A stretch of DNA of 64,000 bases from a virus (Duplodnaviria > Caudoviricetes), in IMG/VR virus record IMGVR_UViG_3300028591_000011, positions 1-64,000 of that record; one strand, 5' to 3'. Under the pieces are notes generated by a model, which made no database searches, had not been told where the DNA came from, and saw only the letters and a program-made list of their open reading frames with translations. Shown in pieces: positions 7,369 to 33,291 of this stretch; position 1 is the first letter of the stretch, and each line of letters starts with the position of its first letter. The translations under genes were made by a program, and so were the position numbers.

Positions 7369-7563
7369 ATGATACACATAAACAATCATGACATAACTGG
7401 TGTTTATAGTGGGCATAAAGATATTATAAAAGTATACAGCGGATTATACTTAGTTTGGAGTAAAGAAATAACAACAGATACCGTATTATCGTGTTATTAT
7501 AACGGATATTGGATTGATGAATATCCTTGGACAGATAATACACCTTGGAGAAAAACAGAATAA
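7369..7563 (+). CDS. Small hypothetical tail-associated protein (64 aa)
   Basis: Tightly packed ORF between its neighbours, with a W/Y-rich C-terminus. Confidence 0.6.
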   Translation: MIHINNHDITGVYSGHKDIIKVYSGLYLVWSKEITTDTVLSCYYNGYWIDEYPWTDNTPWRKTE

Positions 7564-7565
7564 TT

Positions 7566-10500
7566 ATGCCATTATACGAAGGATATATAAACGAATTTGT
7601 AGATTGGGTTGATGGACACGATACATCGGCGGATGAGATATCGCAAGTGTACAGAGCATCTTCTACAGGTGGATTACCTGTTTCTGGTAAGTACATACGA
7701 GAACTATTACAGACAAGATTGAAAAAACCTTTCGTATCATATGAAGATACAATAGCTGGTTTATACAGATTGTTTAGTAGTGAAGACATAAAGAACAAAT
7801 GGATCAGAATGAATACAGAAGGTAGTCCTGAATATGATCCAGAAAGTTCTAAGTCACTTGAATTGTTTAACTTTGTAAGACCAAGTGATGTTACGCTTAC
7901 ATTTAGCGGACTTGATCCAAATCCAAAATACATAATAAACGGTGATGAAAACTCAAGAAACGCATTACTTGAGTTTAATGTGTATTTGTCAAAAGAATCT
8001 GGCGGCGGAGTCGTATACGAAAGCGACTCCTTCACCGTCACCTATGAAGTTACAGATTCTAACGGTATAAAACATACACAGTCTGAAGAAAAAGATTCAA
8101 CTTTTTTAAATTCTACGAAAAAGGTAACTAAGAATATATATTCTATGTTATCAATAGGACAGAATATTGTAACTGTAACTATGAAAGCTAAAAATTCTAG
8201 CGCACAAAATTCAGTTACATTTGCAATGTTTTTAGTAGTATTTGAAATAGAAAGTTTATTCGACTATGCTGCTCACTGGGATCCGGAACGACCAATAGAT
8301 ATACCTATAAGTATACGCCGCAGTGATACTTCTCTTAGAATCAGAGTAGATATAACTGTAGACGGGTAGCCTGCTAAATTAGCTGTAGATTATAAAACTC
8401 CAGCTACATGGGAAATAGGCGCTGGAGAATCAAACCCTACTAGAACTATATCTATCGCGAATACATATAGTGCCAATGTTACATCTCAAGATAGAGAACA
8501 GCATGTTCTACAGATAGAAGCGCACATGTATGATCTAGATATGGGTGTTTCTTATCCTAGCAATGTATTATTATTTGACTTTATTGTGGCATCTAGTACT
8601 ATAGGTATTACAAATAAGTTTATAAATACTAAATGTTCGCTTCCTTATAGTAAAGTTTCTACAGATATAGACTCTACTGGACGAATATTCTTTTAGGCTG
8701 TTTAGTATCAGACATTTACGTTGCCTTGGGCTTATTATACAGACAGAGAAACAACATAGCAAACCATAAATGTAGAGTGGGCAACTAGGGTAGAGAATAA
8801 CGGTGTATATACGTACAATACTATAGCGACATTAGAAGGTCGTAATAAAATGCAAAGCGAACCGTTGCGTTTTATTCCAGATTTTTATACTACTGGAAAT
8901 GAGATTTGCCTTGTAGCGTTATATCAAGGAGAAGAAATAGAAGCTTTCCCTCTACAAGTAGAACAAAGTAATCTTTCTATAGTAGAAACTGGAGGTTATG
9001 ATCTTAAATTAACAGCCTTTGGTAAATCTAACCAATCCCCAAATAAAAACGAATGGGCTGACATATATAATAATGTAACTACAACATTTTCTGGAATTAT
9101 ATTTGATGATAATTCTGGATGGAACAAGAACAGTTTTGTTACTAGAGGAATTGACCAACATGCGATTATAAATTATAATCCTATTCCTGCAGATTACGAT
9201 ATTGGAGAATATGGAAAAACTATAGAGATAGATTTTAAAACAGAAAATATCGTAAACGAAAACGATGTTCTTATTACAATAGGAGACCCACAAAAGGGGC
9301 ATATTGATATAAGCACAAATAAAGCTGGATTGTATAATGGACAAAATGAGATAATTCGTACAAATTATAAACCTAACGAGCGTATAAAATTAGCATTTGT
9401 ATTTAATCCAGTTAGATCGGGAGTAGATAATTCTAACTTGATATTCATAATAAATAATGGAATATTAGAACGTGCTACTTCTTACGGAACAGCTTTAAGT
9501 TATTCGTCTGCAAACGGGTTCATAAAAATAGGTGGATCTTATAGCGGAATAAGAGTATATAACATAAGAGGTTACAATAAAGCGTTAAGTTATAGCGAAG
9601 AACTTAACAATTATATATACGATAGTGAAAATAAAGCTGAGATTATTAATAGAAATGATATCTTTACTAGTAGTGTAATTGATTATACGAAAGTAAAAAA
9701 TAAAATTGATACTATATTACTTACGGGCAATTTAAATAAGATATTGTCACAAGGCACAAGTAAAGATGATTCGGAATCTACAATTAATTTCAAAAGAGAG
9801 TGTATAACAGATCCCACTAAGTCGTTTGAAGTTATAAACGGCATGATAAGAAAGCATGGACAATCGACGCTTAGCTATCCTATAACCTCAATGAAACTTT
9901 GGACAAATAAAGCCAAAGAATCTAATGTTGTTACTAATATAAATCTTTCATAGACGCAGAAGGCGGAAGGTCTTAACAAGAACCGATATATAATGAAGAC
10001 TGGAGCTATTCCAGCTAATAAGTTTGTTCTACAAGCAAACTATGCAGACTCTTCTGGTACTCATAATGGATCTCTGCTCAGACTTATCCAAAAAACTTGG
10101 TACGACGCTCAAATAGATGGACACCATATACTTAGAACAGCTCCACAATTGTTTACTTCCGGTGAAGTTCTAACGCATAACGATTCTGATTTGCATGAGG
10201 ACGGTACTTGGGTAGAAGGTTATGGAGTAGGTGCTGCTGCAAATAAAACATGGCCACAGACAACTGGTAAGAATTTCCCGTATACAATTCGTGTTGCACC
10301 AGATTCATTCCCTTGTGCGGTATTCTATCAAAATGGCCCTAACGACGGATATCATTTCTTAGGTCAATACGTTTTCATGGATGACAAGAAATCAGACTAT
10401 ACCTACGGCGAACGCAGTATATACCATTTTGGAACTGATAACGATCCGTTCGTCCTTAAGACGGAAAACACAAAGAACGGACCTTTAGGTAGACAAGATA

Positions 10501-13500
10501 CAGACGAAAATAAAGTTTGGGACAATAAAGACGTATTGAGAATAGAAGTTGTTCTTCCCGACACCACGTTGACTAGCTATATGGATTTCGATGTAACCGA
10601 CAAAGACGGGAATGTTGTACCATGTACTACAATCAAAACAGACGCTGCTGGAAATCCAGATAAATATTATTGGGAAGATTATTTCGAAATGATATTTCCA
10701 GATGAAGACGATGTAGCGGAAGATGATGCAAAAGACGGTATAAATAAATTTAATCCAAATTCTAAATTTGTAAAAAAAGTACAACCGTTTATAAACTTCC
10801 TAAAATGGATTACTGATTGCAAAAAGAATTATGCAAATGCTACATAGTGGTGGTCTGCTGGTACATATAGTTCTACACAACAAGCATTTGAAGCTACCGC
10901 TGCACAACATCTTGATTTATATAAAATAGCTGCATATTATATATTCTTCTTACGTTTTGGACTTGTAGACTCTGTAGAACGTAATGCTTAGTTAAAGACG
11001 TATGATGGTCAACACTGGCATTATGAACCTTGGGATATGGATATCGCATGTGGAGAAACTAACCAAGGTGCTCTGATATTAAATCCACCTTTAAATAGAG
11101 AAAGTGTAGAACCAGGTACTACTACATATGCATATTCTGGTAAAAAATTAAATAGTACCAGTAACACATTATTTGACTGTCTTGAAAATTGGGATTATTG
11201 GGCTAATACACTAGTTCCAAATGTAGCACAAGCTCTATATGATGCAGGTCTTGATTACGACTCTATAATGGAAATGTTCGATGGACAATATGCAGATGCG
11301 TGGTGTGAAGCGATGTATAATGAATCTGGAAATTTCAAATATATACAAAACGGAGGTGGAGATTGGTTAAAATGGTTACACGGATCTAGAACGTCTCATA
11401 GACATTGGTGGATTAGTACATCTATGAATTATTATGACGCCAAGTGGTCTTGTGGTGCATTTAATTCTCACCGAGTTAGAATATTTACGGATAAAAAACG
11501 CAATTCAGATTTAAACGATCCTGACATTATTACTATAAAGCCGACATCTGACACATTTATCAAAATAGCTAACCTTGAAGGTTAGGGTCTCGTCGACATG
11601 CACCAAGTTATAAAGAACGATTCTGAAAGTTGGAAGTTCGATGTATCGAATGCAGTATTTTCTACAAAGGACCCGGCTTATATATACGGCGGTACGTTTA
11701 TTGAGGAGATAGACTTGAGTTCTATATCAGAAAAACTAAAAGCGGCAGACTTTGCGTTGTGTTACGATAACATATTAGGTGCCCCCATAAAAAAAGTTAA
11801 CGTGGGCCTACCATATACAGAAATATCTTCTACACAATACCAAGGTAAAGTATCCGGTACTCAAATGAGATTAGAAGGATACGATCCTATAGCAAAAACA
11901 GACGCTTTTGAGAATCTGTAGATACTCGATATTACAGGACAAGCAAGTATTACGACCACTTCAGAATTACTTGGATCTACAGATAGAAGAAATGTTACGG
12001 ACGTATATGCAATAGGTAGCGGTATTACAGAATTTATAAGTTCTTAGTCTGGTAATAAATTTAATACAATTAAATTGCCAGCCGTAACAACAGTTACATA
12101 TACTGGTCAAAATCCTACTACAACCATATTTAACACATTGTCTATGACAAATAGTTCTTGGTAGAATATAGAATTTTGGAATACAAATAGATCTGGCGAT
12201 ATAGTATATATGAGAGACGAGAATGATGAACTTATTCTCGACGACGAAGATAAACCTATCGCAGAACCATCTGTTGCTACGTTTACAAAAACTGCAATAC
12301 CTTATCAGTTACATACTGTGCAATTTAAGGGAAGTACAGCATCGAATGAATGTGCTGGTCAATTTATATTAGATTGGATAGAATCTATAGATAATAGTTT
12401 GCCAGTAGGTCATACAGAAGAAGATTTGTATGAAGCACTTTCGTCCAAAAGTTTTTAGGCTGAGAATATAAATTGGGGGTTGAGCAATCAAAGTATACAG
12501 TTTACATATCAAGATGTTGCTAGGATTGCACACATGAATAATGGTAATAATTCTGGCGGATTAATTAAAGGTTATATAGTATTGTCTGATGACCATGACC
12601 TCACAGCTGAACAAGTCAACAATCTTGCATAGTGGTTTGGTCAATCTGTATTTACTAAGAGTTCTAAGAATAGTGGTCTTGTGATAGATCATATGCGGCC
12701 ATATGTATAGATTACTTCATATGGTACAAGTGTTGTAGATAACGAACTTATATTAAATGAAGGTAGTTCTACGTCTTTGATTGCTACTAGATTTACTTTA
12801 TCTGAAGATAGTTCTGATGAATTTAGTTGGTCTGTAACTACCGGACAAAACATTCAAAGTTCTGGTAAAAATAGAGAAAAATCTGTATATCTCTAGGCCG
12901 GAGATGATGGGATGATGTATTTAGTTGCAGAGGGTGATGGAACATATGGGGATTATTATGTTACAGTAACTGCTTCTAGTGGAAATGTCACATCAATGCT
13001 TACTATAAAGATAATAGGAGCTATACTTCCTGATCATATAGAAATCGCATTAAGAACAGTATCTGGAGATCCCGCAAGAAGATTTTCTTTATCGCAGCAA
13101 TTAATATCTGCTATGCCTACCGTATTTAATAATTACGCGTATGATGCTCATAATAATAATGCAATAAGGGATACTTATTTACTATTTTCTTCTGGACAAC
13201 AAGTAGAATTTTATGCTAGAGCTATAAACGGGCCAGTTCCTTCGACAATACCGATAAATTCCATACGATATTCTATATCTACAATATTACCTACTCTTAC
13301 AACTTATTAGTAGTTAACCGGATACGAAAATGTTGTTTCAAATAGAATAGGTGACGGAATTCTTCATTATGTAAAGTGCGCAGAAAATAGAGGTATTGTA
13401 GTTGGTGTTACGTCGGCGCCTTCGTCTTTATCTATATATGAATTAAAAGCATATGTTACTGTTGGAGCAATGGTGTATGCAAAGACGATAAACATAATAG

Positions 13501-14129
13501 CTTATGACGATAGCTCGGTAATCCATTAGGAAAGTACATCTCGACCTGTATAGAATGTGTTGAATTCTTTGTACTATTAGATATACGGAACTGATAAAGA
13601 TAAATATTATAAATCTGATTTGTTATAGTTAGTTGGTGGATTGGATTTTTCTCAAGAAACAAATATCGAATATCTTAACACAGAGACGAATGAAAATTTG
13701 TTGCAGTATTTACCTAATATTACATCTTTAAATTTTGAAGGTTGTACGCATCTTAGTATGAGTACTCTTGGAACATTTAATTAGACGCAAGACACGTTGT
13801 TGTTTACACAAATGGACAAGTTATAGAGTATAAATATGGATGGTGTCGCTACTGGCAATATAGTAATAGATTTATCTAACCTACAGTCGTTAACTTCCAT
13901 AAATTTAGAAAATACTAGAGCTGGTATAATATTACCTCCGCAATCTGCTGTATCTTCAATACAGTTAGGATCTCCGACTAAGGTATCTATTACCAATCCT
14001 ACTCAACTTGGAGACGATGGAACTACATTTACAATTTAGGATTCGTAGTATCTGGATGACATATCTTTAATTAACTGTAACACTACAACTGTTCATGGAT
14101 TTACAATGTTCAATACTTTATACGAATAA
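7566..14129 (+). CDS. Large multidomain tail-associated protein (~2187 aa): LamG/ConA-like domain, CotH-kinase-like domain, C-terminal LRRs
   Basis: Eight same-frame track ORFs joined through TAG. LamG-like 'KTIEIDFKT...IRVYNIRGYNKALS'. CotH-like 'HGQSTLSYPITSMKL', 'VLQANYADSS', 'DSVERN', 'PWDMDIACG'. LRR 'LPNITSLNFEGC', 'LSNLQSLTSINLENT'. Ends TAA 14127-14129. Confidence 0.75.
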
Positions 14130-14135
14130 TACACT

Positions 14136-15833
14136 ATGCATTTAGAAATTAAACAAAATATAAACAAAACGGAGATCGTAGATCCATCAGTAATAAGCAA
14201 ATTATACGAGTTGTCTTATGAGGATTAGTAGAACGGAACTGTTAGTTAGTTAGATTCTACAAGCGATGTACAAGGACGCATAGAGACTGTTGCTGCAGAT
14301 GAAGACGAAGTAAGATACCTCGCAGGCATAGATCCTGGTGATGTTAAACGGTTTTAGAATCTTTATATAACAGTTCCAAATAATAGCTATTATATAAATA
14401 TCGAAGATCCCGCCACGAAAGCTATTTGTGTTGCTTTGTGGGGTGGTGCTGATGGTGGTACTGCTGCCGCTAGCAGTCGTGTCAACAATACAAAGATACC
14501 AGGTGCTGCTGGGGAACTGACTTATGCACAGGCGGCAAGCATCAAGTATTTTCCTAGTAATGCTTTTACGAATAATACAAGCATTATAGACGCGAGCGTT
14601 TTTCAGTATTTTACTAATCTGACAAATTTTAGTGAAAACGCTTTTTTGAACTGCTCATCGTTGAAGAATCTCACAATTCCAGCTAATTTTACTGCGTTTT
14701 AGAATAATTCGTTTTATGGGTGTAGCTTACTGACCAGGGTTGATGCACTGAAGGATTTGGAAGGGTGGATGAGAATCACTACACAAAACATATACTCGAC
14801 ACCATTAACGAGACCAGTGTCTTTATATTTGAACGGTGTCGAACTAGCTGGTGAAGTTGTTATCCCTAATAGTATTACAGATATAAAAAGCTGTACTTTT
14901 TGGAACTTGCGTGCAATTACTAGTGTTGTATTTCATAACGGTATTACAAGTATTGGAGGTTATGCGTTTGCAGGAACCAGTATAGCAGGAAATCTAACTT
15001 TACCTCAGTAGCTTATTATTTTAGGTGAAAGATCTTTTTATGGTTGTACAAATATAACGAGAGTAACTATACAAAACGGGTTGAGTATTATAGGAAAGGA
15101 TGCGTTTCGTGATTGTACCTCGTTAACAAGAATAGACATACCGGCAAGTGTTATAACTATTGGCTCAGGAGCCTTCGCGAAGAACGGTGACAGTTATGAT
15201 ATATATTACAGTGGTACTTTATAGTAGTGGATGAATATTGATAAATAGTATCATATTGATGTGGGTGGTCCTTTTAATAACAACATCTTGTACATCCAAG
15301 ATGTTGTTATTACTGACGTGGTAGTACCTGCTGGTACAACTATTATAAAATAGTATGCTCTTACTAATAGTGTCAATATAACAAGTATAACGCTTCCAGA
15401 TAGTCTTCTGAGTATTGGACTAGGTGCTTTTCGTAATACAAGAATTACAAGCATTACAATACCAAACAGCGTTACGTCAATTGGTGCAGATGCGTTTCGT
15501 GATTGTATTAATCTTAGATCAATCGTTATGCCAGATTCATTAACAGAAATTTAGAGTTATGCGTTCGCAGGATGTATTACTTTGACTTCTGTGACCATAC
15601 CAAACTCGGTGACAAGCATTGGCAACTATGTTTTCTCGTAGTGCAGTAATCTTGAAACTGTAATTGTGGAAGCTGTTACACCTCCCACTTTAGGAAATAA
15701 TGTGTTTTATTACAATAAATCAAACAGAATCATATATGTTCCTGACGCAAGTGTAGATGTGTATAAATCAGCAAATGGGTGGAGTAGTTATAAAAATTAT
15801 ATAAAAGGTATTTCAGAATTGCCACAATCTTAA
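14136..15833 (+). CDS. BspA-type leucine-rich repeat (LRR_5) protein (~565 aa)
   Basis: Repeats such as 'ITIPNSVTSIGADAFRDC' and 'VTIPNSVTSIGNYVFSQC', with a C-cap 'TPPTLG...IYVPDASVDVYKSANGW'. Read through TAG. Confidence 0.85.
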
Positions 15834-15873
15834 ATATGTAATAACAGAACCCTAACTGTCTAAAATAGGGATT

Positions 15874-15960
15874 GCGTGGATAGCTCATTGGTAGAGCGGG
15901 AGACAGGCGCATAAAGCGTTTCGGAAGCACTTGAAGATGGTTCGATTCCATCTCCACGCG
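15874..15960 (+). ncRNA. tRNA-like element with intact acceptor, D and T arms but no canonical anticodon arm
   Basis: Acceptor stem GCGTGGA/TCCACGC, D arm GCTC-ATTGGTA-GAGC, T arm GATGG-TTCGATT-CCATC. The 37-nt middle has no standard 5-bp stem/7-nt loop. No encoded CCA. Confidence 0.7.
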
Positions 15961-15966
15961 CGTGTG

Positions 15967-16017
15967 ACTACAGACGTGTAGTAAGTCATATAAAAGTCCC
16001 CGACACTTTTATATGGC
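15967..16017 (+). other. Two adjacent hairpins downstream of the tRNA-like element
   Basis: ACTACA-GACG-TGTAGT (15967-15982) and GTCATATAAAAGT-CCCCGAC-ACTTTTATATGGC (15985-16017). Confidence 0.65.
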
Positions 16018-16091
16018 GCAATTAAGCAGACCTTACTGCACAATAAAGGATTATTAACATTTATTAACTTATTTTATTAACATTAATTATT

Positions 16092-17021
16092 ATGGAAAGT
16101 TCTAAAATTATGATGTTCCCTGAGATGGGGAATAATAGCATTGATCCAAACCTGCTGATGGCTCTTAACAACAACGGTGGTTTTGGTGGTAATAACTGGA
16201 TGTGGATTCTGTTTCTCTGGCTTATCTGGGGATACGGAGGCTGGGGAGGTAACGGCTTCGGTGGAAACGGAGGCAATGGATTCCTCTCTAATCAGATTGC
16301 AAACGATTCTGGTCGTGAGCTGCTGATGAACGCTATCCAGGGTAATCGTGATTCTATTAACAGTCTTGCAAACCTCTTAAACACTGAGGTCAATACTGTA
16401 CAGAATGGTATATTCACACTGAACAATGCTATTACTTCTGTAGGTACTCAGGTAGGCATGAGCGGATTGCAAATTTAGAACGCCATACAGAGTGGTAATG
16501 CATCTATCGCCAGCCAGATATGTCAGTGCTGCTGCGAGAATAGACTTGCTATTGCTAATCAGACTAATACACTGCAGTCTCAGATGGCAGCTAATCACGC
16601 TGCTGCTACACTGCAATCAGCACAGGAGCAGGCTGCTGATCAGCTTGCTGTATGTCAGCAGACCAATACGCTGGCTAATCAGGCTGAGCGCAATACTCGT
16701 GATATTGTTGATGCTATATCTGCTCAGAGTGTTATGATCAACGATAAGTTCTGTGACCTTGAGAAGAGGGAGCTGCAGAATAAGATTGATACTCTGGTAG
16801 CTGATAATGCTCTGTTACGTTCAAATGCAAATAACGCTGCTCAAACTGCATTCATTAACGAGAAATTTAATACTGTTGCTACTGAGCTCGCTGCTATTAA
16901 AGCTTCACAGCCCAATACAATCCCTGTTCAGTGGCCCAATGTTACAGCTGTAAATACTACTCCGTTTGCTGGTGGGTTTTACGCTATGAATAACTGTGGT
17001 TCTAATAGCTTCTGGAATTGA
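16092..17021 (+). CDS. Module gene A: Gly-rich/Trp-rich membrane segment + long Q/N/A coiled coil with CQCCC motif (309 aa)
   Basis: ORFs 16092 and 16584 are joined by a single TAG (16476-16478). Ends TGA. Confidence 0.85.
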
Positions 17022-17024
17022 TTT

Positions 17025-17035
17025 AGAAAGGAGGT
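17025..17035 (+). promoter_or_regulatory. Strong Shine-Dalgarno-like sequence AGAAAGGAGGT
   Basis: Lies directly upstream of ATG 17040. Confidence 0.55.
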
Positions 17036-17039
17036 AATT

Positions 17040-17396
17040 ATGTTTGGTTCTACTAATTATCCATTCAACTTCTCCAACAGAAGGGGAATACCTCTGATCG
17101 AAACTAGTTCTATAAGTGTTACGGCAGATAATGTAGTGATAAACATACCTAATAGATCGTTCAGGTGGTTGAATGATAAGGGTATTATACTACTTAGACT
17201 TAACCAGGCTATTCCCGATGGAACTACAGGTACACTGCCTGTACTGTTCTCATCAAACGATTTTACACAACCGCTTACGAATGTTGGTGGTACAGCTATC
17301 ACAGCAGCTTAGATTCTTGGTGCTGGTGTATATCTTATATACTATGACAAGAATGCTAATCTGATGCAGATGCTTACTACTTAGATTCCAGCTTAA
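17040..17396 (+). CDS. Module gene B: beta-rich hypothetical protein (118 aa)
   Basis: ORF 17040 extends through two TAGs to TAA 17394-17396. Confidence 0.8.
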
Positions 17397-17422
17397 TATT
17401 AACATTAAAACTTTATTAAATT

Positions 17423-17773
17423 ATGGTAGTTATTGAAATGCGGGATGCTGCTTACGATACAGCATTCGACCTTCTTGATGAAGCTAAACATAGCGCAAAG
17501 AAAACAAAGCTTACTCTTTGTGAGCTTGAAGACGCTATGTACGATTGCTATGAAGCATCGAAAGAGAACGAAGACGAGTGGGATAACGAAGACTCTGATA
17601 TGGAGTATCGTAATAGATATTCAACTCGTAATTATCGTCATGACGAATATGACCCAGAAGAATATGAGGATGACGAAGATACGCGTAAGCACGCTTCTAT
17701 GAGAAGAATGTCTCGTAGAGGAATGCGTGGAGGTATGCGTATGCGTCGTAATCGCATGGGACGCTTTGTTTAA
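17423..17773 (+). CDS. Module gene C: acidic protein with an Arg/Met-rich C-terminus (116 aa)
   Basis: Intact ORF ending 'SMRRMSRRGMRGGMRMRRNRMGRFV'. Confidence 0.8.
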   Translation: MVVIEMRDAAYDTAFDLLDEAKHSAKKTKLTLCELEDAMYDCYEASKENEDEWDNEDSDMEYRNRYSTRNYRHDEYDPEEYEDDEDTRKHASMRRMSRRGMRGGMRMRRNRMGRFV

Positions 17774-17780
17774 TGAGCGA

Positions 17781-17796
17781 GGGGGCTACGGCCCCC
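17781..17796 (+). terminator. GC hairpin GGGGGC-TACG-GCCCCC (terminator or stabiliser; no U-tract)
   Basis: Perfect 6-bp stem with a C(UACG)G tetraloop in intergenic DNA. Confidence 0.55.
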
Positions 17797-17817
17797 AACC
17801 TCTTAATACTTACTATT

Positions 17818-18318
17818 ATGTTTTCTACATTGAGAAAAGGAGCTTCTATCTATATACTTGATAGAAGTGCCAGACCAGAAGTAAAAGTAGGTAGCATTGA
17901 TAATGTTACAATGCCTCGTCCCATGTATCCCACATACAATCCTGCTGTTAGTGTAGGTACTAATATGCAAACTGTAGTGGATATTACGGTACGAGTAGGT
18001 GATGAAAAGAAAGAGTTTAGTGTACCTAGCAACTTATCTATACATACTTATGGAGATTATACTTTAAGTGAGAATAAAGAAGCTATGATATCAGAAGTAG
18101 ATTCTCTATTATAGCAAAGTAAGGATGTAATAGATAGTGTTGATAAACACAAAGCTGCTATAACTGCTTACGAAGATATACTTAAGACTTTAAATCCTGT
18201 ATACGCAAGAGAACAGGAACGAGAGTCTAGAATAGATAGCTTATCGTAGTAGGTAGGTGATATGCAGTCAACTCTTAAAAGGTTAGAATCAATATTATTA
18301 AGAAATGAGAACAACTAA
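17818..18318 (+). CDS. Module gene D: beta-rich N-terminus + C-terminal coiled coil (166 aa)
   Basis: Starts 'MFSTLRKGASIYILD' after the hairpin and reads through three TAGs to TAA 18316-18318. Confidence 0.75.
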
Positions 18319-18685
18319 ACACTACAGAAAGTACCAGAGATTATACGGTCCTCACTTTACAAAAGAGTTATGTGACTTTGCAGTATCTTTAATGGAAGAT
18401 GACAAAGGTCCTATAACTCCTATAACTAAACAACAATTAGAAGAAAAGTTAAAAGTGCAGAATATTACCTTAGAGTATAACAAGCTTTATGATGCTGTAT
18501 ATGTAGCAAATATGTGTAAAGCTGATTACTTAGGTAATGCTGTACCTAATAACGATTACAATCTCTGTATGTATGTAAAGAAAACTATAGATGACCCAGA
18601 TGGATATGATGGGCAACCATTCAACCGCTGGATGTCAGATATAGAGGGTATGCATATTCCAGTTGATTGGTCTGAGTTTGTATGA
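18305..18685 (+). CDS. Module gene E: helical hypothetical protein (126 aa)
   Basis: Intact ORF 'YGPHFTKELCDFAVSLM...YVANMCKADY...DDPDGYDG', overlapping both neighbours. Confidence 0.8.
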   Translation: MRTTKHYRKYQRLYGPHFTKELCDFAVSLMEDDKGPITPITKQQLEEKLKVQNITLEYNKLYDAVYVANMCKADYLGNAVPNNDYNLCMYVKKTIDDPDGYDGQPFNRWMSDIEGMHIPVDWSEFV

Positions 18686-19086
18686 CATCTTAGTATATAC
18701 AACTCGGGGACCGTGGTTGGAATGTTCTTATATATTATAATGTAGACGAATACGATTTTGTAGAGATAGTAGATTCTTTAGAGCAAATAGATTGCCCGAA
18801 AAAGGATATGAAGAAAGCACTGAGTGTACTAAAAAGAAAGAACACAGGCTTTACTTTTACAAATACTAACTACAAAATGAGCATCGTGTGTATAGGGAAA
18901 GCTAAGAATATAGGTTAGTTTGTTAATACATGTATACATGAAGCTAAACACGTATAGTCACACATATGTCAATATTATGGTATAAAAGAAGATTCCGAGG
19001 AAGCTGCGTATCTAATAGGGCATTTGGTACATAGAATGTATAAGATGCTTGAAAAGATACTGAGAATGTATGTTAACATTATATAA
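18682..19086 (+). CDS. Module gene F: small zincin-like metallopeptidase (134 aa)
   Basis: ATGA overlap with gene E. HEAKH at 18937-18951 with downstream 'EEAAY'. Three in-frame TAGs, so it is absent from the ORF track. Confidence 0.7.
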
Positions 19087-19087
19087 C

Positions 19088-19606
19088 ATGTTTGACATTA
19101 AAGGTGATAAAATATCTCTCAATACCGAAGACTTAGCTATACCACCGTTTAGAGATCATTACAACAGTGCAAAGGATAAGTCTTCGGCGTTGAAGGAGAT
19201 TGAATACGTAGTATGGCTACATAAATGGAATACTCCATACGAAGCATACCCATTAGAAACAAGGGCTGCTACTGTAGCTAAAGACGTATTTGGAGATAGT
19301 AAATATGTACCTACTGCAGAGGTTAAAGAGTTAGAAAAGCGTTTTATAGAGTTTTAGGAAACGCCTGGAACTAGATTACTTTCAGCTTCATAGACTGCAG
19401 CAGAGGGGCTTATAGCTGCCCTAAACGACTACTCTTAGGGTAACATGGATATAGATACAGCTATAAAGGTTACAAGAATATTAAAAGATGTTGGAAATAT
19501 TGTAAAGTCTCTAGACATTGCTATGAAACAGGCAAGAGCTGAGTAGTTGGAGACGGGTAAAGTAAAAGGTGGCGGTATAATAGGCCGCTACGAAATTCCA
19601 AGGTAA
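19088..19606 (+). CDS. Conserved protein upstream of TerL, putative terminase small subunit (172 aa)
   Basis: Read through TAG to TAA 19604-19606. Helical and immediately before terL; function inferred from position only. Confidence 0.55.
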
Positions 19607-19615
19607 TAAATATTT

Positions 19616-21664
19616 ATGGTAGACTTTAATAAAAAAATATACAATTCTTCAAAATTTTGTAAGCCTGCTGAGTTCTTCAAAGAACATGGATGCTATACTT
19701 TAGCACCCAGAGGCACTACAGATTATAATAACTATTGGGATAGAGAGACAGATAGATGTCTTAACGGATATGTTGCAGAAGATGGAGATGCTATTACTGG
19801 CTACCATTATTTCTATTTAAACTATTGTCCTATCATGAAATTGGTAGAAGAAGAATATACGGATAGATATGGGCAAAAACGCCTAAAGAGAAATCGTGTA
19901 TTTGAATTCCCTAATTTCTGGGACGGTGACTATTACTATTTCAATGCGATAGAAGAGGCTGAGAATGAAGGTAAACATATGGCAGTCCTTAAGTGTAGAC
20001 AAAGAGGTTACTCTTTTAAGGGGGCTAGTATGTTAGTTAGAAACTACGAACTCATCCCAGGGTCTAAGAACTTTGCGGTAGCTTCAGAACAGAAATTCCT
20101 AGTTGGTGACGGAATTCTTACAAAAGCTTGGCAAATAATGGACTTCGTTGACAAGAATACAGACTGGTCAAAACAACGACTTACTGCTACTCGTATGGAG
20201 CGTGTATCTGGATTCAAAGTTAAAGATGAGTTTGGTAAAGAAACTGAACAAGGCTATTTATCTTCCATCACAGGTATTACACTGAAGAATGACCCAGAAC
20301 GCCTTCGTGGTACTCGTGGTAAGCTTGTACTATTTGAGGAAGGTGGTAAGTTCCCGGGTCTTGAAACAGCGTGGCAAATCGAACGTCCTGCTGTAGAAAC
20401 TGACGACGGTGTAGCTTTTGGTTTACTTATAGCATTTGGTACAGGTGGTACTGAAGGTGCGGCGTTCGATGGACTAAAAAATATGTTCTATCACCCGGAC
20501 GCATTTAATGTACTTGGATTCCCTAACATATGGGATGACAATGCAAGTAATACTAAATGTGGATTCTTCTCTCCATCTTACTGGAATCTAGAGAGTAAAG
20601 ACGGATCTTGTATAGATCCAGATGGTAATAGTAAGAAAGATGTCGCTATTGAAAGATTAATAGCTGAAAGAAACAAAGTACGTGACGGCGGAGCTTCGTA
20701 GGAAGCTATAGATAGATTCATATCAGAACGTCCCATGAAGCCTGCAGAAGCGTGCTTGGAATTAGGAAAAAATATATTTCCTAAAAAGCTTTTGATGGAC
20801 CAACTAACTAGAATAAGAACAAACGAAAAGCTTAAAAACATGAAGCATGTGGTTGACTTATTTTGGGATGGAAATGGTATGGTAAAAGCTACAGAAAAGA
20901 AATCTGGCGATATAACAGAATATAAACCTGATAAACGAGATGACAAACCAAGAGGATCAGTAGTTATCTGGGAATACCCAATCCCAGATGCCCCATTCGG
21001 ATTATACATTGGCGGTTGCGACCCATATGATCATGACGAGTCGTTCACTAACTCGTTAGGATCGACGTTTATTTTTAAAAGAGTTAGAGCAGGAGAAGCT
21101 TGGAACGACGTAATCGTAGCCGAATATACGGGAAGACCAGACACAGCCGAAGAGTATTATGAGAATGTACGTAAACTGTTAACATTCTATAATGCTAGGC
21201 TGCTGTTTGAGAATGAACGTAAAGGTATATATCCGTACTTTACAAACAAACACTGTGACTACTTGCTTGCGGATCAGCCAGATAAGATAATTACAGAGAT
21301 ATTTAAAGATAGTCGTGTACAGCGTAGAAAAGGCTGCCATATGACAAAACAAATAAGAGCCTACGGAGAGGGTCTGATATTAGAATGGCTAATGGAAGAA
21401 TATGAGCCTGGGCACTTAAATATAGAAAGGATATACAGTGAACCGTTGCTTGAAGAACTTATAGAAACAGATGGTGTAAAAAACGTAGACCGTGTGATAG
21501 CTCTATGTATGGTAATGATATATAGAGAAGAGTTATATCAAGTAAAGGTGTCAGCTGCAAAAGAAGAAAATAAACAGGTTGAACTCTTCGAGCTACCTTT
21601 GTTCAGTAGACAATGGTTTGCTGATACGTAGCCACAAGACGACATACCGTTATTTAGTTTTTAA
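19616..21664 (+). CDS. terL: Terminase large subunit (682 aa)
   Basis: Walker A-like 'LKCRQRGYS', Walker B 'VLFEEGG', nuclease 'GCDPYD' and 'DRVIAL'. ORFs 19616 and 20735 join at TAG 20699-20701. Confidence 0.92.
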
Positions 21665-21670
21665 CGATAT

Positions 21671-21907
21671 ATGAAAAACATCTGGAAATGGATTAAAGAT
21701 AGTCATAGGTTATAGCATCTACTTGGAGGTATTGCAATAGGTGCGTTATCTTCTGACTGGTATTGTGCAGGCTTAGCAGGAATTAGTACTGCAGGCGCTA
21801 TGGAATTTAAAGATTATTAGTGGGGAGGAAAGCCTGACATTATTGATTTTATAATCACATTGACTGGAGTATTTATTGGATTTGGATTTAAATTTTGGAT
21901 ATTATGA
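21671..21907 (+). CDS. Small membrane protein (78 aa)
   Basis: 'HLLGGIAIGAL...AMEFKDYQWGGKPDIIDFIITLTGVFIG'. Two TAGs; ends TGA. Confidence 0.7.
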
Positions 21908-22155
21908 TAAAGAAGATTTATGACTCTTGGTTTACCAATGCATTATTTGCAACAGGTGCCGTACTTATGGGGTTGTATGGGGATTTCGCTCTTATACCTT
22001 CAGATATTTGTTATGGTGTATTCTTAGGAGCTGCCGGTTCATTTCTTGGTGAGGTAATAAAGAAGTTGACTCTTAAGAGAGATTGGACATCTAAGGGTAT
22101 GATTATAGGAGCCCCAATCGGAGCTATAGCAGGTATGGGTGTGTGTCTTGTGTAA
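21904..22155 (+). CDS. Small membrane protein (83 aa, about 3 Gly-rich TM segments)
   Basis: ATGA overlap with the upstream gene; hydrophobic Gly-rich helices. Confidence 0.7.
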   Translation: MIKKIYDSWFTNALFATGAVLMGLYGDFALIPSDICYGVFLGAAGSFLGEVIKKLTLKRDWTSKGMIIGAPIGAIAGMGVCLV

Positions 22156-22205
22156 ATATAAATAAACATCGCGGTTTGTGTGCGTTTGTTTTAAAATAAA
22201 TCAAA

Positions 22206-24689
22206 ATGGTTAAAATAGAAGATAATTTATATAATTCGAACTTCCCGCAACAGAAGCTGCCGCTTAAAAAGAAGACAGAGCAGTGGCAACATGATTGTGT
22301 GGATTATATCATAGGAGAAGGAAATGTAGTATCCGGTGGTATGAGTAAGACTAGGTTCGGAGAGATACAAACCTATTATAACCTTTATAATTCAATATTC
22401 GATGAGAAAGATTTTAAACGTATCACAAACCCGTTTAAAGTCGAAGATGGATTTCCAGCAACACCTCAAGATTTCAATATAATAAGGCCTAAGGTAGACC
22501 TCCTTATAGGTGAAGAGACAAAGAGGCCGATGAACTTCAGAGTAGTTAGGACATCCTAGGAAGCTGCTTCAGAACTCATGGATAAAGAAAAAGAGATGCT
22601 TATGTAGTACATGATGGCTGCAGTAACATCTAAAATGGGAGAAGAAGAAGCTGCTCAATTTTAGCAATAGTTGTAGTCTGGGGAGATAATGCCTCCAGAA
22701 GGTATTGCTAAATACATGCAGAAGGATTATAAAGACGTTATAGAGAATACAGCATATCATACACTTACATATCTTAGAGAAAAGTTAAACTTAGATAATG
22801 AGTTTATTAAAGGTTGGAAAGACGCTCTTATATCTGGTACAGAGATATATTATGTGGGTGTACTCAACGACGAACCTTATTTGGAGAGAGTAAATCCAGT
22901 CTTCTTTTCTTACGATCAATCTCCAGATTTAGAGTTTATAGAAGATGCTTCATGGTGCTGTAGAAGAATGAGGTTACCGGTAGCAGAAGTATACGATAGG
23001 TATTACAACAAGCTCAGTGAAAAAGATTTAAACAAGCTTCAAGAAATGCTAACTGGTAGACCTTCTAACGATATGGGTGACAAAGATAAGACGGATAACT
23101 TTGGTATACAAATGCATATTTATGACAACCCCATATTCGATCAGAAGACTCGTCATAATATAAATGTATGGCATTGCTGCTGGAAATCATTTAAAAAGAT
23201 ATACTACGTTACGTATTTGGATGAATCCGGTACTCCTCAAATAGATATAGTAGACGAATCTTATAAAAAGAATGGTACAGAGGTAGACGTCACTCCTGAC
23301 TGGATTGTAGAAGTATGGGAAGGCTATAGAGCGGGTTCTGACTTATACTTCGGCATACAGCCTATTGAGTATCAGCATGTTTCAATTGATAATCCCAATT
23401 CTCAAAAGCTTCCATATACAGGAGCAATTTATAGCAACACTAATAGCAAACCAAGATCCCTTGTTAGTATACTCAAACCTCTTCAATATATGTATATTGT
23501 GCTTTGGTATAGGCTTGAACTCGCTATTGCGAGAGATAAGGGAAAGGTAGTGAACATGGATATTACTTAGATACCTAAGTCCATGAATATAACTCCAGAT
23601 CGTTGGATGCATTATTTGTCTAGTGTTGGTGTAAACTTTATTAATCCGTATGAAGAAGGTTGGAATGTTCCTGGACGAGAGGGAGGCAAACCTGCTACAT
23701 TCAATTAGATTACGTCGTTAGATTTGACTATGTCTAATGTAATCGCTGAATATATTCAGTTGATGGACAAGATAGAACAGCTCGCAGGAACTATATCTGG
23801 TATTACAGAACAGCGTGAAGGTGCTATTAGTTCTAACGAACTTGTAGGAAACGTAGAGAGGTCAGTAGTACAGTCTTCACATATCACAGAACCTTTGTTC
23901 TGGGTGCATAATCAATGTAAGCGCCACGCCCTTAATATGCTGCTAGATACAGCCAAAGGTGCATGGTCTTAGACAGGCAAAAAGAAGTTAAGTTATGTCT
24001 TCGATAATGGAGAACGTGCATATCTCGATATTGCAGATAAATTCTATTACGAGGATATGGACGTGTTTGTGAGCGACACTTCTAAAGACATGGAGAATAT
24101 ACAAAAACTACAACAGCTTATTCAACCAGCTATGTAGAATGGAGCCAGCCTCTTAGAAGCAGCTGAAGTACTTACAAACGATAACTTCAATATTATTAAG
24201 CAGAAGCTTCAAGAGATGTAGCAACGTCAGGAAGATCAGATACGTCAGCAACAGCAGGCAGAACAAGAGCAGGCTGTGCAACTGCAACAGATGCAGAATG
24301 AACAGCGACAGCAAGAGCTCATGCTTGAAGAAGCCAAGATGGAGCTTGAACGTTATAAGATTGATGCTGATAACCAGACCAAGATTGCAGTAGCTGAAAT
24401 TAGTGCATATCGTGGTACAGAAGAGAAAGATGCTAATAACAACGGCATACCCGATCCTATGGAGATAGCTAAGGATGCTACACAATAGCGTAAGATTGCA
24501 TCTGACGAGTATACTAAGCGTTATGAAGCACGTCAAAAGAGAGAGATAGAAGATCAGAAGATTCAGCTTGAAGAGAAGCGTATGAAGCACGAGATGGAGC
24601 TACAAAAGCAGAAGGATAAAGCTGCTGAAGAAAGAGAACGCATCAAGGCTAGAGCTGCTATCAGGAATAAAGTAAGCGGGGAGAAGTAA
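22206..24689 (+). CDS. Portal protein (827 aa)
   Basis: crAss-type N-terminus 'FPQQKLPLKKKTEQW', 'NIIRPKVDLLIGEE', 'EVWEGYR', Q-rich C-terminal coiled coil. Follows terL. About 11 in-frame TAGs. Confidence 0.88.
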
Positions 24690-30212: not shown

Positions 30213-30965
30213 ATGGTAGTTGAATTAAAATTAAAGAAGAAGAATCCCTGGGGTAATTTTATGAAGTATAAGAATTGCTTTGATTATATAGCTCCTTATT
30301 TTACACGCTCCGGGTCGATATATACGGGTCTCACCCCAGAAGATGAGAGATATTTTGAAAAGGCTTTAGGTTATGAAGAAGGCCACCTTGCAAAGACATC
30401 TGAATTTTGGACCACTTTCTGTGTAAAGATTGGTTCTAGAACATTGCTGTTAGACGATTCTATTCCTCGTCAGGCTATGATTATTAAGTTCCTTAGTGGA
30501 CATAAGAGAGTAGCAACCTCACTTGATAAACTTGATGCAGGTAAAGACTACTTGCTTATTAATAGAGAAGCGGAGGCTATAGAGCAGAATAAACAGAATA
30601 AGTTGCGTAGAGATGCTATTAAAGAGTTTGATAACCTTTCGTTGGAGCAAATGCGCAAATGTCTTAGACTGTTTGGTATGTCTGCGGACAGAATGTCAAA
30701 CGAACTTGTAGAGTCTACGTTGTTCAATTTTGTAGACAAGTAGCCTAAAAAGTTCTTTGATAAGTGGATAAACAACAAGTCAAAAGAAACAGAGTTCTTG
30801 CTCGAAGAAGCTATAGCAAAAGGGGTTATTCGTAAAGATAAGACACATTACTTCTACGGATCTGATATGTTTGCAGACTCTCTTGACGATGCAATAGCTT
30901 ACCTGGATAGTAAGAAGAACCAAGACCTAAGGCTGTCAATTATAAACGAAACTAAGAATAAGTGA
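30213..30965 (+). CDS. Conserved crAss-like protein downstream of the MCP (250 aa)
   Basis: ORF 30213 extends through one TAG to TGA 30963-30965. Confidence 0.75.
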
Positions 30966-32575: not shown

Positions 32576-33291
32576 CATTAGATGAGACAAGACAGCTTGG
32601 TATAGAGTTTGAACGTAGGATACAGACTATGATACCTGAGACAGAAACTATCTCAAAGCTGGACACAGAAACTATATATTCGTACTTAAACTAGTATCAA
32701 GATAAGTTTATACATGATATATATAGAGCTGTAGATAAGGTTCCTACATCAAATAGTTAGGTATATTTAGAAAATATATTACAACCTTTTATGTAGTCTA
32801 CTGATTTGTAGATGTCAAAGGCATAGAATAAAGGCGGTCAATATATTATACCTTTACCTACTTAGTTTGGACTGTACATTGATAGTTATTCTAATGTCGC
32901 CAGTTCATATAGGTTTAAAGGAGCTAATGGATACGGTAACGTACCTAATACCTGGAGTACAGCAAATGACGCAAATAAGGCCATTTAGAAGCCCTATGAC
33001 AGCATGAAAATACTTAGGAGTCCTATTGTATGGCTGACAGAAAATAACTCGTTAGGAGCGATTTATGACACTCATACAAAGCCTAATTATATACATATTA
33101 ATTACTACAGATTGCCTAAGTATATGAACCTTATGGAGTCTATACCATGCGAGCTTCCTATGGAGGTATTTGAAGATATTGTATCCGGTGCTGTAGATCT
33201 ATACGTACAATATGTAGCTGGCGCAGAAGCTAGAAAGAAGCAGCTTGCACAATAGGCTAAACAAAATAAAAAGAAGGAGGATGAAGAATGA
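32572..33291 (+). CDS. Ring/neck protein (239 aa)
   Basis: ATGA coupling. 'IEFERR...IYSYLNQYQ' and 'INYYRLP...CELP'. Read through TAG. Confidence 0.7.

What the first reader, a model, noticed from the sequence alone, without database searches (positions are those of the whole stretch)
15850..16060. tRNA-like RNA lacking a normal anticodon arm, embedded in a hairpin cluster
Acceptor (7/7 bp), D (4/4) and T (5/5, TTCGATT loop) arms are perfect. The 37 nt between the D and T arms instead offer only bulged pairings (GAGAC/GTTTC, GGCGC/GCGTT), with no U33-type loop and no CCA. Flanking hairpins are CCCTA..TAGGG (15850-15870), a 6-bp stem and a 13-bp stem. Perfect elbow and acceptor arms with a rebuilt anticodon arm suggest selection for tRNA shape rather than decoding. 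Possible roles: RNase P/Z processing signal for the downstream module, decoy for anticodon nucleases or synthetases, or part of a larger ncRNA.
Basis: partly seen in the sequence, partly recalled or inferred. Interest (0 to 1): 0.75.

Follow-up and report, generated by a model that had tools for sequence, protein, structure and literature searches.

The report
Anticodon-less tRNA mimic between pseudoknots
A gut crAss-like phage carries, just after a tail-fibre gene, an RNA that evolution keeps in the shape of a tRNA but that has no anticodon, flanked by two small conserved pseudoknots; it most likely tells the host's tRNA-trimming enzymes where to cut the phage message, though no cut has been shown.

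Summary
Window 15874-15960 (+) folds as a tRNA with perfect acceptor, D and T arms (Rfam tRNA 45 bits), but 31 nt stand where the model expects 15 and there is no usable anticodon loop. ARAGORN's 'tRNA-Leu(taa)' is not credible: of 28 distinct relatives, 22 get no call and the rest get conflicting anticodons.

It is not a decaying pseudogene. All 7 acceptor pairs and 4 of 5 T-stem pairs show compensatory changes, and the tertiary 15-48 pair covaries. The anticodon-arm substitute has an invariant core (GGAGACA ... GRAGCACC) and a variable tip hairpin.

A second copy lies at 16026-16049. The motif occurs only at this locus.

In related phages the same slot holds 42-45-nt acceptor+T-arm 'top halves', other odd tRNA-like RNAs, arrays, or nothing.

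Best reading (about 0.5): a processing module cut by host RNase P and RNase Z, with the pseudoknots capping the new RNA ends. This works like plant mitochondrial t-elements and MALAT1/mascRNA. A trans-acting role for the excised RNA is not excluded.

No RNA ends or expression could be obtained. This scan has already noted anticodon-less tRNA mimics on other phage DNA.

The parts
14136..15833 (+). Upstream gene: 565-aa BspA-type leucine-rich-repeat (tail-fibre-like) protein with 12 in-frame TAG codons. Its stop codon lies 10 nt before pseudoknot 1.
   Evidence: ORF opens only with TAG=Q; PHROG hits of unknown function.
15844..15870 (+). Pseudoknot 1 (H-type). S1 is ACAG 15844-47 / CTGT 15856-59. 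S2 is CCCTA 15850-54 / TAGGG 15866-70. Loop 3 is the A-rich CTAAAA. It ends 3 nt before the tRNA-like 5' end.
   Evidence: Alignment A2 of 27 distinct relatives: S1 3/4 and S2 4/5 pairs with changes on both sides, 93% of cells paired against 80% in shuffles, 0/500 shuffles as high.
15874..15960 (+). The tRNA-shaped RNA (87 nt): acceptor 15874-80/15953-59, D arm 15883-97, T arm 15936-52, discriminator G15960, no CCA encoded.
   Evidence: Rfam RF00005 45 bits; family model R1 98 bits, the only copy in the window; covariation.
15899..15931 (+). Anticodon-arm substitute. The proximal irregular helix is GGAGA 15899-903 / GCACT 15927-31 (3 standard pairs plus A.A and A.G). It has invariant linkers: CA, and (T/A)CGRRA in the short form / AAGGAG in the long form. 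The tip hairpin is GGCGC 15906-10 / GCGTT 15916-20 with a 5-nt loop ATAAA.
   Evidence: Columns 26-34 and 67, 71-74 of A1 are invariant in 28 sequences. Pair 26-75 is GC 25, AU 2, GU 1. The tip hairpin covaries (AU/GC/UA). Loops are 4-6 nt, or a 17-nt branch in the 103-nt form. Columns 8-34 were part of the search pattern, so their invariance is partly by ascertainment.
15967..15982 (+). 6-bp hairpin ACTACA / TGTAGT, loop GACG.
   Evidence: Read from the sequence; not found in relatives, which go straight from the tRNA-like 3' end to pseudoknot 2 or to a small hairpin plus T-run.
15985..16017 (+). 13-bp hairpin (GTCATATAAAAGT / ACTTTTATATGGC), loop CCCCGAC, with no T-run after it.
   Evidence: Read from the sequence; the terminator scan finds no intrinsic terminator in 15000-16800.
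16026..16049 (+). Pseudoknot 2, same design as pseudoknot 1: S1 GCAG/CTGC, S2 CCTT/AAGG, loop 3 ACAATA.
   Evidence: Pattern scan. Relatives have ACAG/CTGT with TCCA/TGGA, TCCGC/GCGGA or CCTGC/GCAGG at the same place, usually 3-4 nt after the tRNA-like 3' end.
16050..16091 (+). A/T-rich leader with three direct copies of TTATTAAC (16051, 16061, 16074), reaching the ATG at 16092.
   Evidence: Read from the sequence; similar TTAYTAAC repeats in relatives.
16092..17021 (+). Downstream gene: 309-aa Gly-rich membrane segment plus coiled-coil protein (CQCCC motif). It is the first of six small genes before the large terminase gene (19616-21664).
   Evidence: phrog_16490, unknown function; terminase phrog_6681.

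Best explanation
Window 15874-15960 encodes a non-decoding RNA that selection keeps in the L-shape of a tRNA. It lies on the sense strand, right behind the stop codon of a late, TAG-recoded tail-fibre-like gene and about 130 nt before the next gene module.

Proposed mechanism:
1. The element is transcribed as part of the late message.
2. Host RNase P cuts at 15873/15874.
3. Host RNase Z, or 3' trimming, cuts after G15960. No CCA is encoded.
4. The upstream mRNA then ends in pseudoknot 1, which sits 3 nt from the cut and blocks 3' exonucleases.
5. The downstream RNA begins with structured elements: two hairpins here, and pseudoknot 2 directly in most relatives.
6. An 87-nt tRNA mimic is released.

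Shown:
- the tRNA fold and its maintenance by compensatory change;
- the absence of a conserved anticodon;
- both pseudoknot stems, by covariation;
- the fact that bare acceptor+T-arm minihelices replace the full-size form at this slot.

Inferred: transcription, both cleavages, and the protective role of the pseudoknots.

The invariant internal loop (GGAGACA / GRAGCACC) suggests the excised RNA may also bind something, but nothing identifies a partner.
For: 1. tRNA fold: Rfam 45 bits. Across 28 distinct relatives, 86% of cells are paired against 71% in shuffles (0/500 as high). All 7 acceptor pairs and 4/5 T pairs change on both sides. RNAalifold independently predicts the acceptor, D and T stems only.
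2. Tertiary 15-48 pair: A-U 14, G-C 7, U-A 2, exceptions 5.
3. No anticodon: 31 nt against 15 in the Rfam alignment. ARAGORN gives no call in 22 of 28 and conflicting calls otherwise. Tip loops are 4-6 nt or branched.
4. The same slot in relatives holds 42-45-nt acceptor+T-arm elements with a GG-containing linker, arrays, or other odd tRNA-like forms. Five complete relatives with a mini element have no full-size copy anywhere. The top half, which is what RNase P, RNase Z and the CCA-adding enzyme recognise (established knowledge), is therefore the common denominator.
5. Pseudoknot 1 covaries in both stems and ends 0-4 nt before the tRNA-like 5' end. Pseudoknot 2 usually starts 3-4 nt after the discriminator. 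The motif is confined to this locus in this genome and in five complete relatives, so it is not a general promoter or terminator.
6. Other full-size members in other contexts sit 23-37 nt before a start codon (L123, L133, L140).
7. The genome holds further sense-strand top-half mimics between genes.
8. The base at -1 is T here and in most relatives, which is the usual bacterial RNase P preference (sequence plus established knowledge).
Against: - No transcript ends, no cleavage and no expression level could be obtained. The RNA libraries that hold the locus are kept only as assembled contigs.
- A structured pseudoknot 0-4 nt upstream could hinder bacterial RNase P, whose protein subunit binds a single-stranded leader (established knowledge).
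- A pure cutting signal needs only the top half. The strict conservation of the D arm, the 15-48 pair and the internal loop is unexplained by processing alone.
- Several relatives have no element at this slot (L007, L026, L036, L038), so the module is accessory.
- In some relatives a small hairpin plus T-run follows the element. That fits an ordinary 'tRNA gene at the end of an operon' layout, in which the small RNA itself is the product.
Confidence: 0.5

Rival explanations
1. The excised 87-nt RNA is the functional product. It would be a trans-acting tRNA mimic made late in infection that occupies a host or phage factor recognising tRNA shape. Candidates are a defence enzyme acting on tRNA acceptor ends, a modification enzyme, or a synthetase. 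It would bind through its elbow and acceptor end, with the invariant internal loop giving specificity. Processing would then be only its maturation.
For: - GGAGACA and GRAGCACC are invariant and the D arm/15-48 core is kept, while all acceptor pairs drift.
- The layout 'gene - tRNA-like - hairpin with T-run' in some relatives resembles a tRNA gene at an operon end.
- Phage T5 makes stable tRNA-like RNAs of unknown function (record NC_005859).
Against: - Five complete relatives do without the full-size form and carry only a minihelix at the slot.
- The acceptor stem sequence is not conserved, so recognition cannot depend on acceptor identity.
- No partner gene (CCA-adding enzyme, Ro60, RtcB) is encoded by the phage.
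- There is no anticodon loop for an anticodon nuclease to bind.
Confidence: 0.25
2. The element is a selfish or neutral cassette. tRNA-derived units bracketed by similar pseudoknot-forming repeats would move or recombine between phage genomes at this hot spot, without a function for the phage.
For: - The slot is highly variable: none, mini, full-size, tandem arrays, other odd forms.
- The two flanking motifs resemble each other.
- One contig (L136) has a 5' acceptor strand of one type and a 3' strand of another, as recombination or mis-assembly would give.
Against: - Compensatory maintenance of three stems, a tertiary pair and both pseudoknot stems argues for selection on RNA structure, not just DNA mobility.
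- No homing endonuclease, integrase or transposase lies beside it.
Confidence: 0.08
3. It is a real decoding tRNA, either with an unusual anticodon arm or with a short intron that is removed to give a normal anticodon loop.
For: It passes the Rfam tRNA threshold. ARAGORN calls Leu(taa), or Phe(aaa) with a 6-nt intron. The phage recodes TAG and needs special tRNAs.
Against: - There is no U33-type 7-nt loop, and calls among close relatives conflict.
- The tip loop varies from 4 to 6 nt or is replaced by a branch.
- Removing the variable part leaves GGAGA/GCACC with no loop at all.
- A normal CTA suppressor exists elsewhere in the genome.
- No CUA is conserved in the insert.
Confidence: 0.03
4. 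It is a decaying tRNA pseudogene.
For: The anticodon arm is disrupted, and such hits are usually flagged 'pseudo' by tRNA finders.
Against: Decay would strike all arms. Here the stems are kept by double changes and the disrupted region itself has an invariant core.
Confidence: 0.03
5. It is a DNA-level site, for example an attP core derived from a host tRNA gene, or a replication or packaging signal.
For: Many temperate phages integrate into tRNA genes and carry a tRNA fragment.
Against: - No integrase is present.
- No prokaryote genome in 185,579 species holds the 3' half or the family signature.
- The whole cloverleaf is kept, not only a 3' part.
- Covariation points to RNA pairing.
Confidence: 0.03

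Closest known systems
t-elements of plant mitochondria and the mitochondrial tRNA-punctuation model (Forner et al. 2007, PMC1920247)
   Same: tRNA-like folds without decoding function lie on the sense strand next to protein genes. Per the paper's abstract, they are thought to direct RNase P/RNase Z cuts that make mRNA 5' and 3' ends.
   Different: This is a DNA phage of gut bacteria. Here the full-size form keeps a complete D arm and core and carries a conserved insert, and it is bracketed by pseudoknots. No ends have been mapped.
MALAT1 / MEN-beta 3'-end module (mascRNA tRNA-like RNA behind a triple-helical stability element); established knowledge, not re-read here
   Same: A compact protective structure is followed within a few nucleotides by a tRNA-like RNA. 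In MALAT1, cleavage by RNase P at that tRNA-like RNA creates the protected 3' end and releases a small tRNA mimic.
   Different: The protective element here is a 27-nt H-type pseudoknot, not a U-rich/A-rich triple helix. The system is bacterial and viral. Cleavage is not shown. A second pseudoknot follows the element.
Phage T5 RNA1 and RNA2 ('tRNA-like stable RNA with unknown functions', NC_005859)
   Same: Phage-encoded, stable, tRNA-like and non-decoding RNAs sitting among tRNA genes (annotation read).
   Different: No detectable relationship: the family model R1 finds T5's ordinary tRNAs at about 30 bits but not RNA1 or RNA2. The genomic setting also differs, a tRNA cluster against a 3' UTR/leader.
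tRNA-like domain of tmRNA (RF00023)
   Same: Acceptor stem stacked on a T arm with a reduced or absent anticodon arm. Mini elements elsewhere in this genome hit the tmRNA model weakly (14.5 bits).
   Different: There is no tag reading frame and no large pseudoknot ring. ARAGORN finds no tmRNA. The element under study keeps a full D arm.
3' tRNA-like structures of plant RNA viruses with upstream pseudoknot domains (TYMV, TMV); established knowledge
   Same: A pseudoknot lies directly upstream of a viral tRNA mimic.
   Different: Those structures are at the very 3' end of an RNA genome, form the acceptor arm through a pseudoknot, end in CCA and are aminoacylated. This one has a normal acceptor stem, lies inside a DNA genome and encodes no CCA.

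Membership tests
Canonical tRNA (Rfam RF00005) | 7-bp acceptor stem, D arm, and T arm with a TPsiC-type loop | tested here: met
   Sequence; Rfam 45 bits against gathering score 29; covariation in 28 relatives.
Canonical tRNA (Rfam RF00005) | 5-bp anticodon stem with a 7-nt loop, U33 and an anticodon conserved among orthologues | tested here: not met
   31 nt where the model has 15. Tip loop is 4-6 nt or branched. ARAGORN gives nothing in 22 of 28 and four different calls in the rest.
Canonical tRNA (Rfam RF00005) | L-shape tertiary contacts: G18G19 in the D loop and the 15-48 Levitt pair | tested here: met
   GG is invariant in the D loop. Pair 15-48 is A-U 14, G-C 7, U-A 2, with 5 exceptions.
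Mitochondrial-type t-element / tRNA punctuation | Non-decoding tRNA-like fold on the sense strand between or beside protein genes | tested here: met
   It lies between ORFs 14136-15833 and 16092-17021, same strand.
Mitochondrial-type t-element / tRNA punctuation | mRNA ends coincide with the borders of the element; cleavage by RNase P and RNase Z | not testable with these tools
   The runs that hold the locus are kept only as contigs and give no ends.
MALAT1/mascRNA-type 3'-end module | Protective structure immediately upstream of the tRNA-like RNase P site | tested here: met
   A covarying pseudoknot ends 0-4 nt before position +1 in 27 relatives.
MALAT1/mascRNA-type 3'-end module | U-rich motifs clamping a genomically encoded A-tract into a triple helix | tested here: not met
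   The element is a 4-bp plus 5-bp H-type pseudoknot with a 6-nt A-rich loop. There are no U-rich internal loops.
tmRNA (RF00023 / permuted RF04321) | tRNA-like domain plus a tag-peptide reading frame and pseudoknots | tested here: not met
   No Rfam tmRNA hit at the locus. ARAGORN -m finds no tmRNA in the genome.
YrlA / bacterial Y RNA | RNA ends pair in a Ro60-binding stem that takes the place of the anticodon stem, and the acceptor-like stem is closed | tested here: not met
   Here the ends are in the acceptor stem and the anticodon side is closed. No TROVE/Ro60 gene is in the phage.
Phage T5 RNA1/RNA2 | Sequence and structure similarity to the T5 RNAs | tested here: not met
   Model R1 gives no match at E<=1 on T5 30501-30644 or 32959-33083.
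preQ1-I riboswitch (for the flanking pseudoknots) | Match to the Rfam model; a ligand pocket formed by a 4-6-nt loop 2 | tested here: not met
   No Rfam hit at E<=10 in 15700-16200. Loop 2 is only 0-2 nt.

The most novel reading that the evidence does not exclude
The unit pseudoknot - tRNA mimic - pseudoknot is a bacterial-virus counterpart of the MALAT1/mascRNA device. Host RNase P and RNase Z would excise the mimic. The upstream tail-fibre mRNA would be left with a pseudoknot-capped, exonuclease-resistant 3' end, and the downstream message with a capped 5' end. In addition, the released mimic would act in trans late in infection: its invariant internal loop (GGAGACA / GRAGCACC) would bind a host factor that inspects tRNAs.
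Probability: 0.2. Interest if true: 0.8.

Novelty: new variant of a known kind. Interest (0 to 1): 0.62.

Why it matters
- **Mis-annotation.** tRNA finders label this element a leucine tRNA, or elsewhere a pseudo-tRNA. That inflates tRNA counts in crAss-like phages and hides a separate class of RNA.
- **Transcript processing.** If the processing model is right, abundant gut phages shape their late transcripts by borrowing the host's tRNA-maturation enzymes, as plant mitochondria and the human MALAT1 locus do. The small pseudoknots would then be portable RNA end-protectors of possible use in bacterial RNA engineering.
- **Possible trans-acting role.** If the excised RNA also acts in trans, it would be a new kind of phage-host interaction centred on tRNA surveillance.
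- **Testability.** The family is phage-only in the collections searched and has clear, testable cut sites.

Tried and rejected
- **RNA evidence.** The 24 runs listed hold at least part of the stretch (15 on record as RNA; sheep and bovine gut metatranscriptome libraries), but all are kept as Logan contigs. One contig stops at 15902 and another starts at 15983. This says nothing about RNA ends or level.
- **Known RNA families.** Only tRNA passes at the locus. The other hits (plastid UTRs, snoRNA, AMV CPB) are chance-level.
- **Intron reading.** ARAGORN intron mode gives Phe(aaa) with a 6-nt intron, which contradicts its own default call and the relatives. Its 'tRNA-Arg with a 501-nt intron' at 91875-92450 has no group I intron match.
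- **attP / host origin.** No integrase. Neither the family signature nor the 3' 24-mer occurs in 185,579 prokaryote species genomes.
- **Phage-encoded partners.** No CCA-adding enzyme, Ro60/TROVE or RtcB.
- **Pseudoknot motif as a general promoter or terminator.** It occurs only at this locus in this genome and in five complete relatives. The one extra match lies inside a coding region.
- **Pairing between AGACAG in the insert and CTGTCT in pseudoknot 1.** Not kept in relatives, which have CTGTAT, CTTGAT or CTGTTT.
- **Alternative helix ACAGG/CCTGT inside the insert.** Present in many relatives but absent in several, and its columns are invariant, so it is undecided.
- **K-turn reading of the internal loop.** The required GA/AG arrangement next to a 3-nt bulge does not fit (by inspection).
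- **First exact-pattern search** with the window's own D and T arms found nothing in viral contigs.
- **Literature.** No paper in the held library describes tRNA-like, anticodon-less RNAs or these pseudoknots in crAss-like phages. One preprint merely lists low-scoring 'pseudo' tRNAs.

Full report
**Setting.** The window is the first 64 kb of a 105.7-kb phage record with direct terminal repeats. Its nearest named relatives are uncultured crAss-like phages cr273_1 and cr272_1 from pig faeces. The libraries that hold the locus come from sheep and bovine gut.

The late genes on the + strand are recoded. The 565-aa leucine-rich-repeat gene at 14136-15833 has 12 in-frame TAG codons, and long ORFs open only with TAG read as a residue. 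The genome has a normal tRNA-Met, a CTA suppressor tRNA and one more odd tRNA outside the window.

The element lies between that tail-fibre-like gene and a block of six small genes of unknown function. That block precedes the large terminase gene.

**The observation.** At 15874-15960 the sequence forms:
- a 7/7 acceptor stem;
- a 4-bp D stem with loop ATTGGTA;
- a 5-bp T stem with loop TTCGATT;
- discriminator G, with no CCA encoded.

Rfam's tRNA model scores 45 bits against a threshold of 29. Its alignment leaves out the anticodon arm, with 31 nt in place of 15.

ARAGORN calls tRNA-Leu(taa) with the anticodon at the abnormal position 39. That implies A33 and a stem with two G.U pairs. In intron mode it calls Phe(aaa) instead.

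The single-sequence fold is only modestly more stable than shuffles (z = -1.6). The case therefore rests on comparison with relatives.

**Relatives.** I used the downstream protein to fetch syntenic loci, then pattern searches of viral and metagenome contigs. This gave 28 distinct full-size members. They fall into a short form of 87-90 nt like the window's, a 103-nt form with an extra branch at the tip, and a 108-nt form with an extra variable-arm hairpin.

*Caveat:* the patterns required the D arm and GAGACA, so invariance of alignment columns 8-34 is partly by ascertainment. The members found by synteny alone share the same motifs. The 3' motif G...GCAC(C) was not in the pattern and is invariant.

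**Evidence of selection on the fold** (alignment A1):
- All seven acceptor pairs and four of five T-stem pairs show changes on both sides.
- 86% of cells pair, against 71% in shuffles; 0 of 500 shuffles reach that value.
- Sliding the 3' partners drops pairing to 34-57%.
- RNAalifold on its own recovers exactly the acceptor, D and T stems.
- The tertiary 15-48 pair covaries: G15 always goes with C48 (7), U15 with A48 (2), A15 with U48 (14), with five exceptions.

This is what selection for the L-shape predicts. It is the opposite of a decaying pseudogene.

**The anticodon side.** ARAGORN finds nothing in 22 of the 28 and gives conflicting anticodons in the rest. The region consists of three parts:
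- A proximal irregular helix GGAGA/GCAC(C/U), with two purine-purine oppositions. Its outer pair is G-C in 25 sequences, A-U in 2 and G.U in the window.
- Invariant linkers: CA, and WCGRRA or AAGGAG.
- A tip hairpin that covaries (A-U, G-C, U-A at one pair). Its loop is 4-6 nt, or is replaced by a 17-nt branch.

No 7-nt loop with U33 exists in any member. The RNA cannot decode.

**The flanks.** Stem 1 is ACAG 15844-47 / CTGT 15856-59.

In 27 distinct relatives both stems covary. Stem 1 appears as ACAC/GTGT, CAAG/CTTG and GCAG/CTGC. Stem 2 appears as CCCCG/CGGGG, GCTTA/TAAGC, CCTCA/TGAGG and others. 93% of cells pair against 80% in shuffles, with 0/500 as high. This pseudoknot ends 0-4 nt before the first base of the tRNA-like RNA.

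A second copy of the same design lies at 16026-16049 (GCAG/CTGC, CCTT/AAGG). In most relatives it starts 3-4 nt after the discriminator, with stem 2 varying as TCCA/TGGA, TCCGC/GCGGA or CCTGC/GCAGG. In a few relatives a small hairpin with a T-run stands there instead.

The window has two extra hairpins of 6 and 13 bp between the element and pseudoknot 2. Neither is a canonical terminator.

The motif is confined to this locus, both in this genome and in five complete relatives. It is therefore not a general promoter or terminator.

**The slot in other phages.** The same intergenic position holds different things in different relatives:
- 42-45-nt elements made only of an acceptor stem, a short GG-containing linker and a T arm;
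- tandem arrays (mini plus full-size; an 84-nt form plus full-size);
- other odd tRNA-like forms of 75 and 82 nt;
- nothing at all.

Five complete relatives that carry a mini element there have no full-size copy anywhere in their genomes. What all occupants share is the tRNA 'top half'. From established knowledge, that is the part recognised by RNase P, RNase Z and the CCA-adding enzyme.

The window's own genome has further sense-strand top-half mimics between genes of the minus-strand block. One is a perfect 33-nt minihelix, and two hit the tmRNA tRNA-like domain weakly.

Full-size members found in other gene contexts sit 23-37 nt before a start codon.

**Interpretation.** The most economical reading is a processing module. 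The late transcript is cut by host RNase P at 15873/15874 and by RNase Z after G15960. The pseudoknots become the terminal structures of the two mRNA products. A small tRNA mimic is released.

This works like plant mitochondrial t-elements (PMC1920247) and, in the pairing of a protective structure with a tRNA-like cut site, like MALAT1/mascRNA (established knowledge).

Membership in those systems cannot be claimed. The defining cleavages are untested, and the protective element has a different architecture.

Processing alone does not explain the conserved D arm, core and internal loop. I therefore keep a trans-acting role for the excised RNA as the main rival.

**Rejected or weak readings:**
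- *Decoding tRNA or intron-bearing tRNA:* no conserved anticodon, and removing the variable part leaves no loop.
- *Pseudogene:* contradicted by covariation.
- *attP or host-derived fragment:* no integrase and no host match.
- *YrlA-type Y RNA:* wrong topology, and no Ro60 gene.
- *tmRNA:* no tag frame, and no ARAGORN call.
- *Relative of T5 RNA1/RNA2:* the family model scores the window at 98 bits and ordinary tRNAs near 30, and misses both T5 RNAs.

**Limits.** Expression is not shown. The locus occurs in RNA-library assemblies, but these can contain DNA and carry no end information. The internal structure of the insert is only partly resolved. E-values of model R1 are rough, because calibration was shortened.

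**Prior notes.** Other agents of this scan have described anticodon-less tRNA mimics in other phages, including crAss-like ones, and top-half mimics elsewhere in this same genome. I treated these notes as leads. I verified the two citations that I reuse.

I found no paper in the held library that describes this RNA family or its pseudoknots.

Noticed in passing
genome 102889-102975 (+), outside the window (L002:1500-1586); also L042:463-544 and L040:2848-2929: A second odd tRNA: normal acceptor, D and T arms (Rfam 47 bits), but 17 nt where the model has 9 in the anticodon loop. The loop holds a conserved CACTTATAGACAG(T/C)CAA. ARAGORN calls it Tyr(ata) at position 38. A related form occupies the studied slot in L040.
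   Followed up: partly
genome minus strand about 72771-72739, 72996-72940, 78727-78640, 91948-91875; plus strand about 102760-102810: Further tRNA top-half mimics between genes. They include a perfect 33-nt acceptor+T-arm minihelix (GGACAGT TA ACGGG TTCGAAT CCCGT ACTGTCC). Two of them hit the tmRNA tRNA-like domain weakly (14.5 and 13.6 bits). Most are followed by ACA.
   Followed up: partly
window 16051-16081: Three direct copies of TTATTAAC in the A/T-rich leader between pseudoknot 2 and the ATG at 16092. Relatives have similar TTAYTAAC repeats. The layout of a pseudoknot followed by an unstructured A/U-rich leader recalls the T4 gene 32 translational operator.
   Followed up: no
window 7545-24689 and beyond: TAG is read through in the late genes: 25 in-frame TAG in the 2194-aa ORF 7545-14129, 12 in 14136-15833 and 11 in 22206-24689. 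A CTA suppressor tRNA sits at 102812-102886, with an unusual T arm (Rfam 31.7 bits, model positions 5-66 only).
   Followed up: partly
L014:2737-2820, L015:2738-2821, L118: An 84-nt tRNA-like element of yet another type (acceptor AGCTTA.../...TAAGCT, T loop TTCGACT). It stands between pseudoknot 1 and the full-size element in some relatives, forming an array.
   Followed up: no
L136:94-196: One metagenome contig joins a 5' acceptor strand of one subtype (GCGTGGT) to the T arm and 3' acceptor strand of another (CCATGTC). The result is an unpaired acceptor stem, through recombination between family members or an assembly chimera.
   Followed up: no
genome 91875-92450 (-): ARAGORN intron mode proposes a tRNA-Arg(tct) with a 501-nt intron. 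Rfam finds no group I intron there and only a 19-bit tRNA-like match at 91876-91949, so the call is probably spurious.
   Followed up: partly
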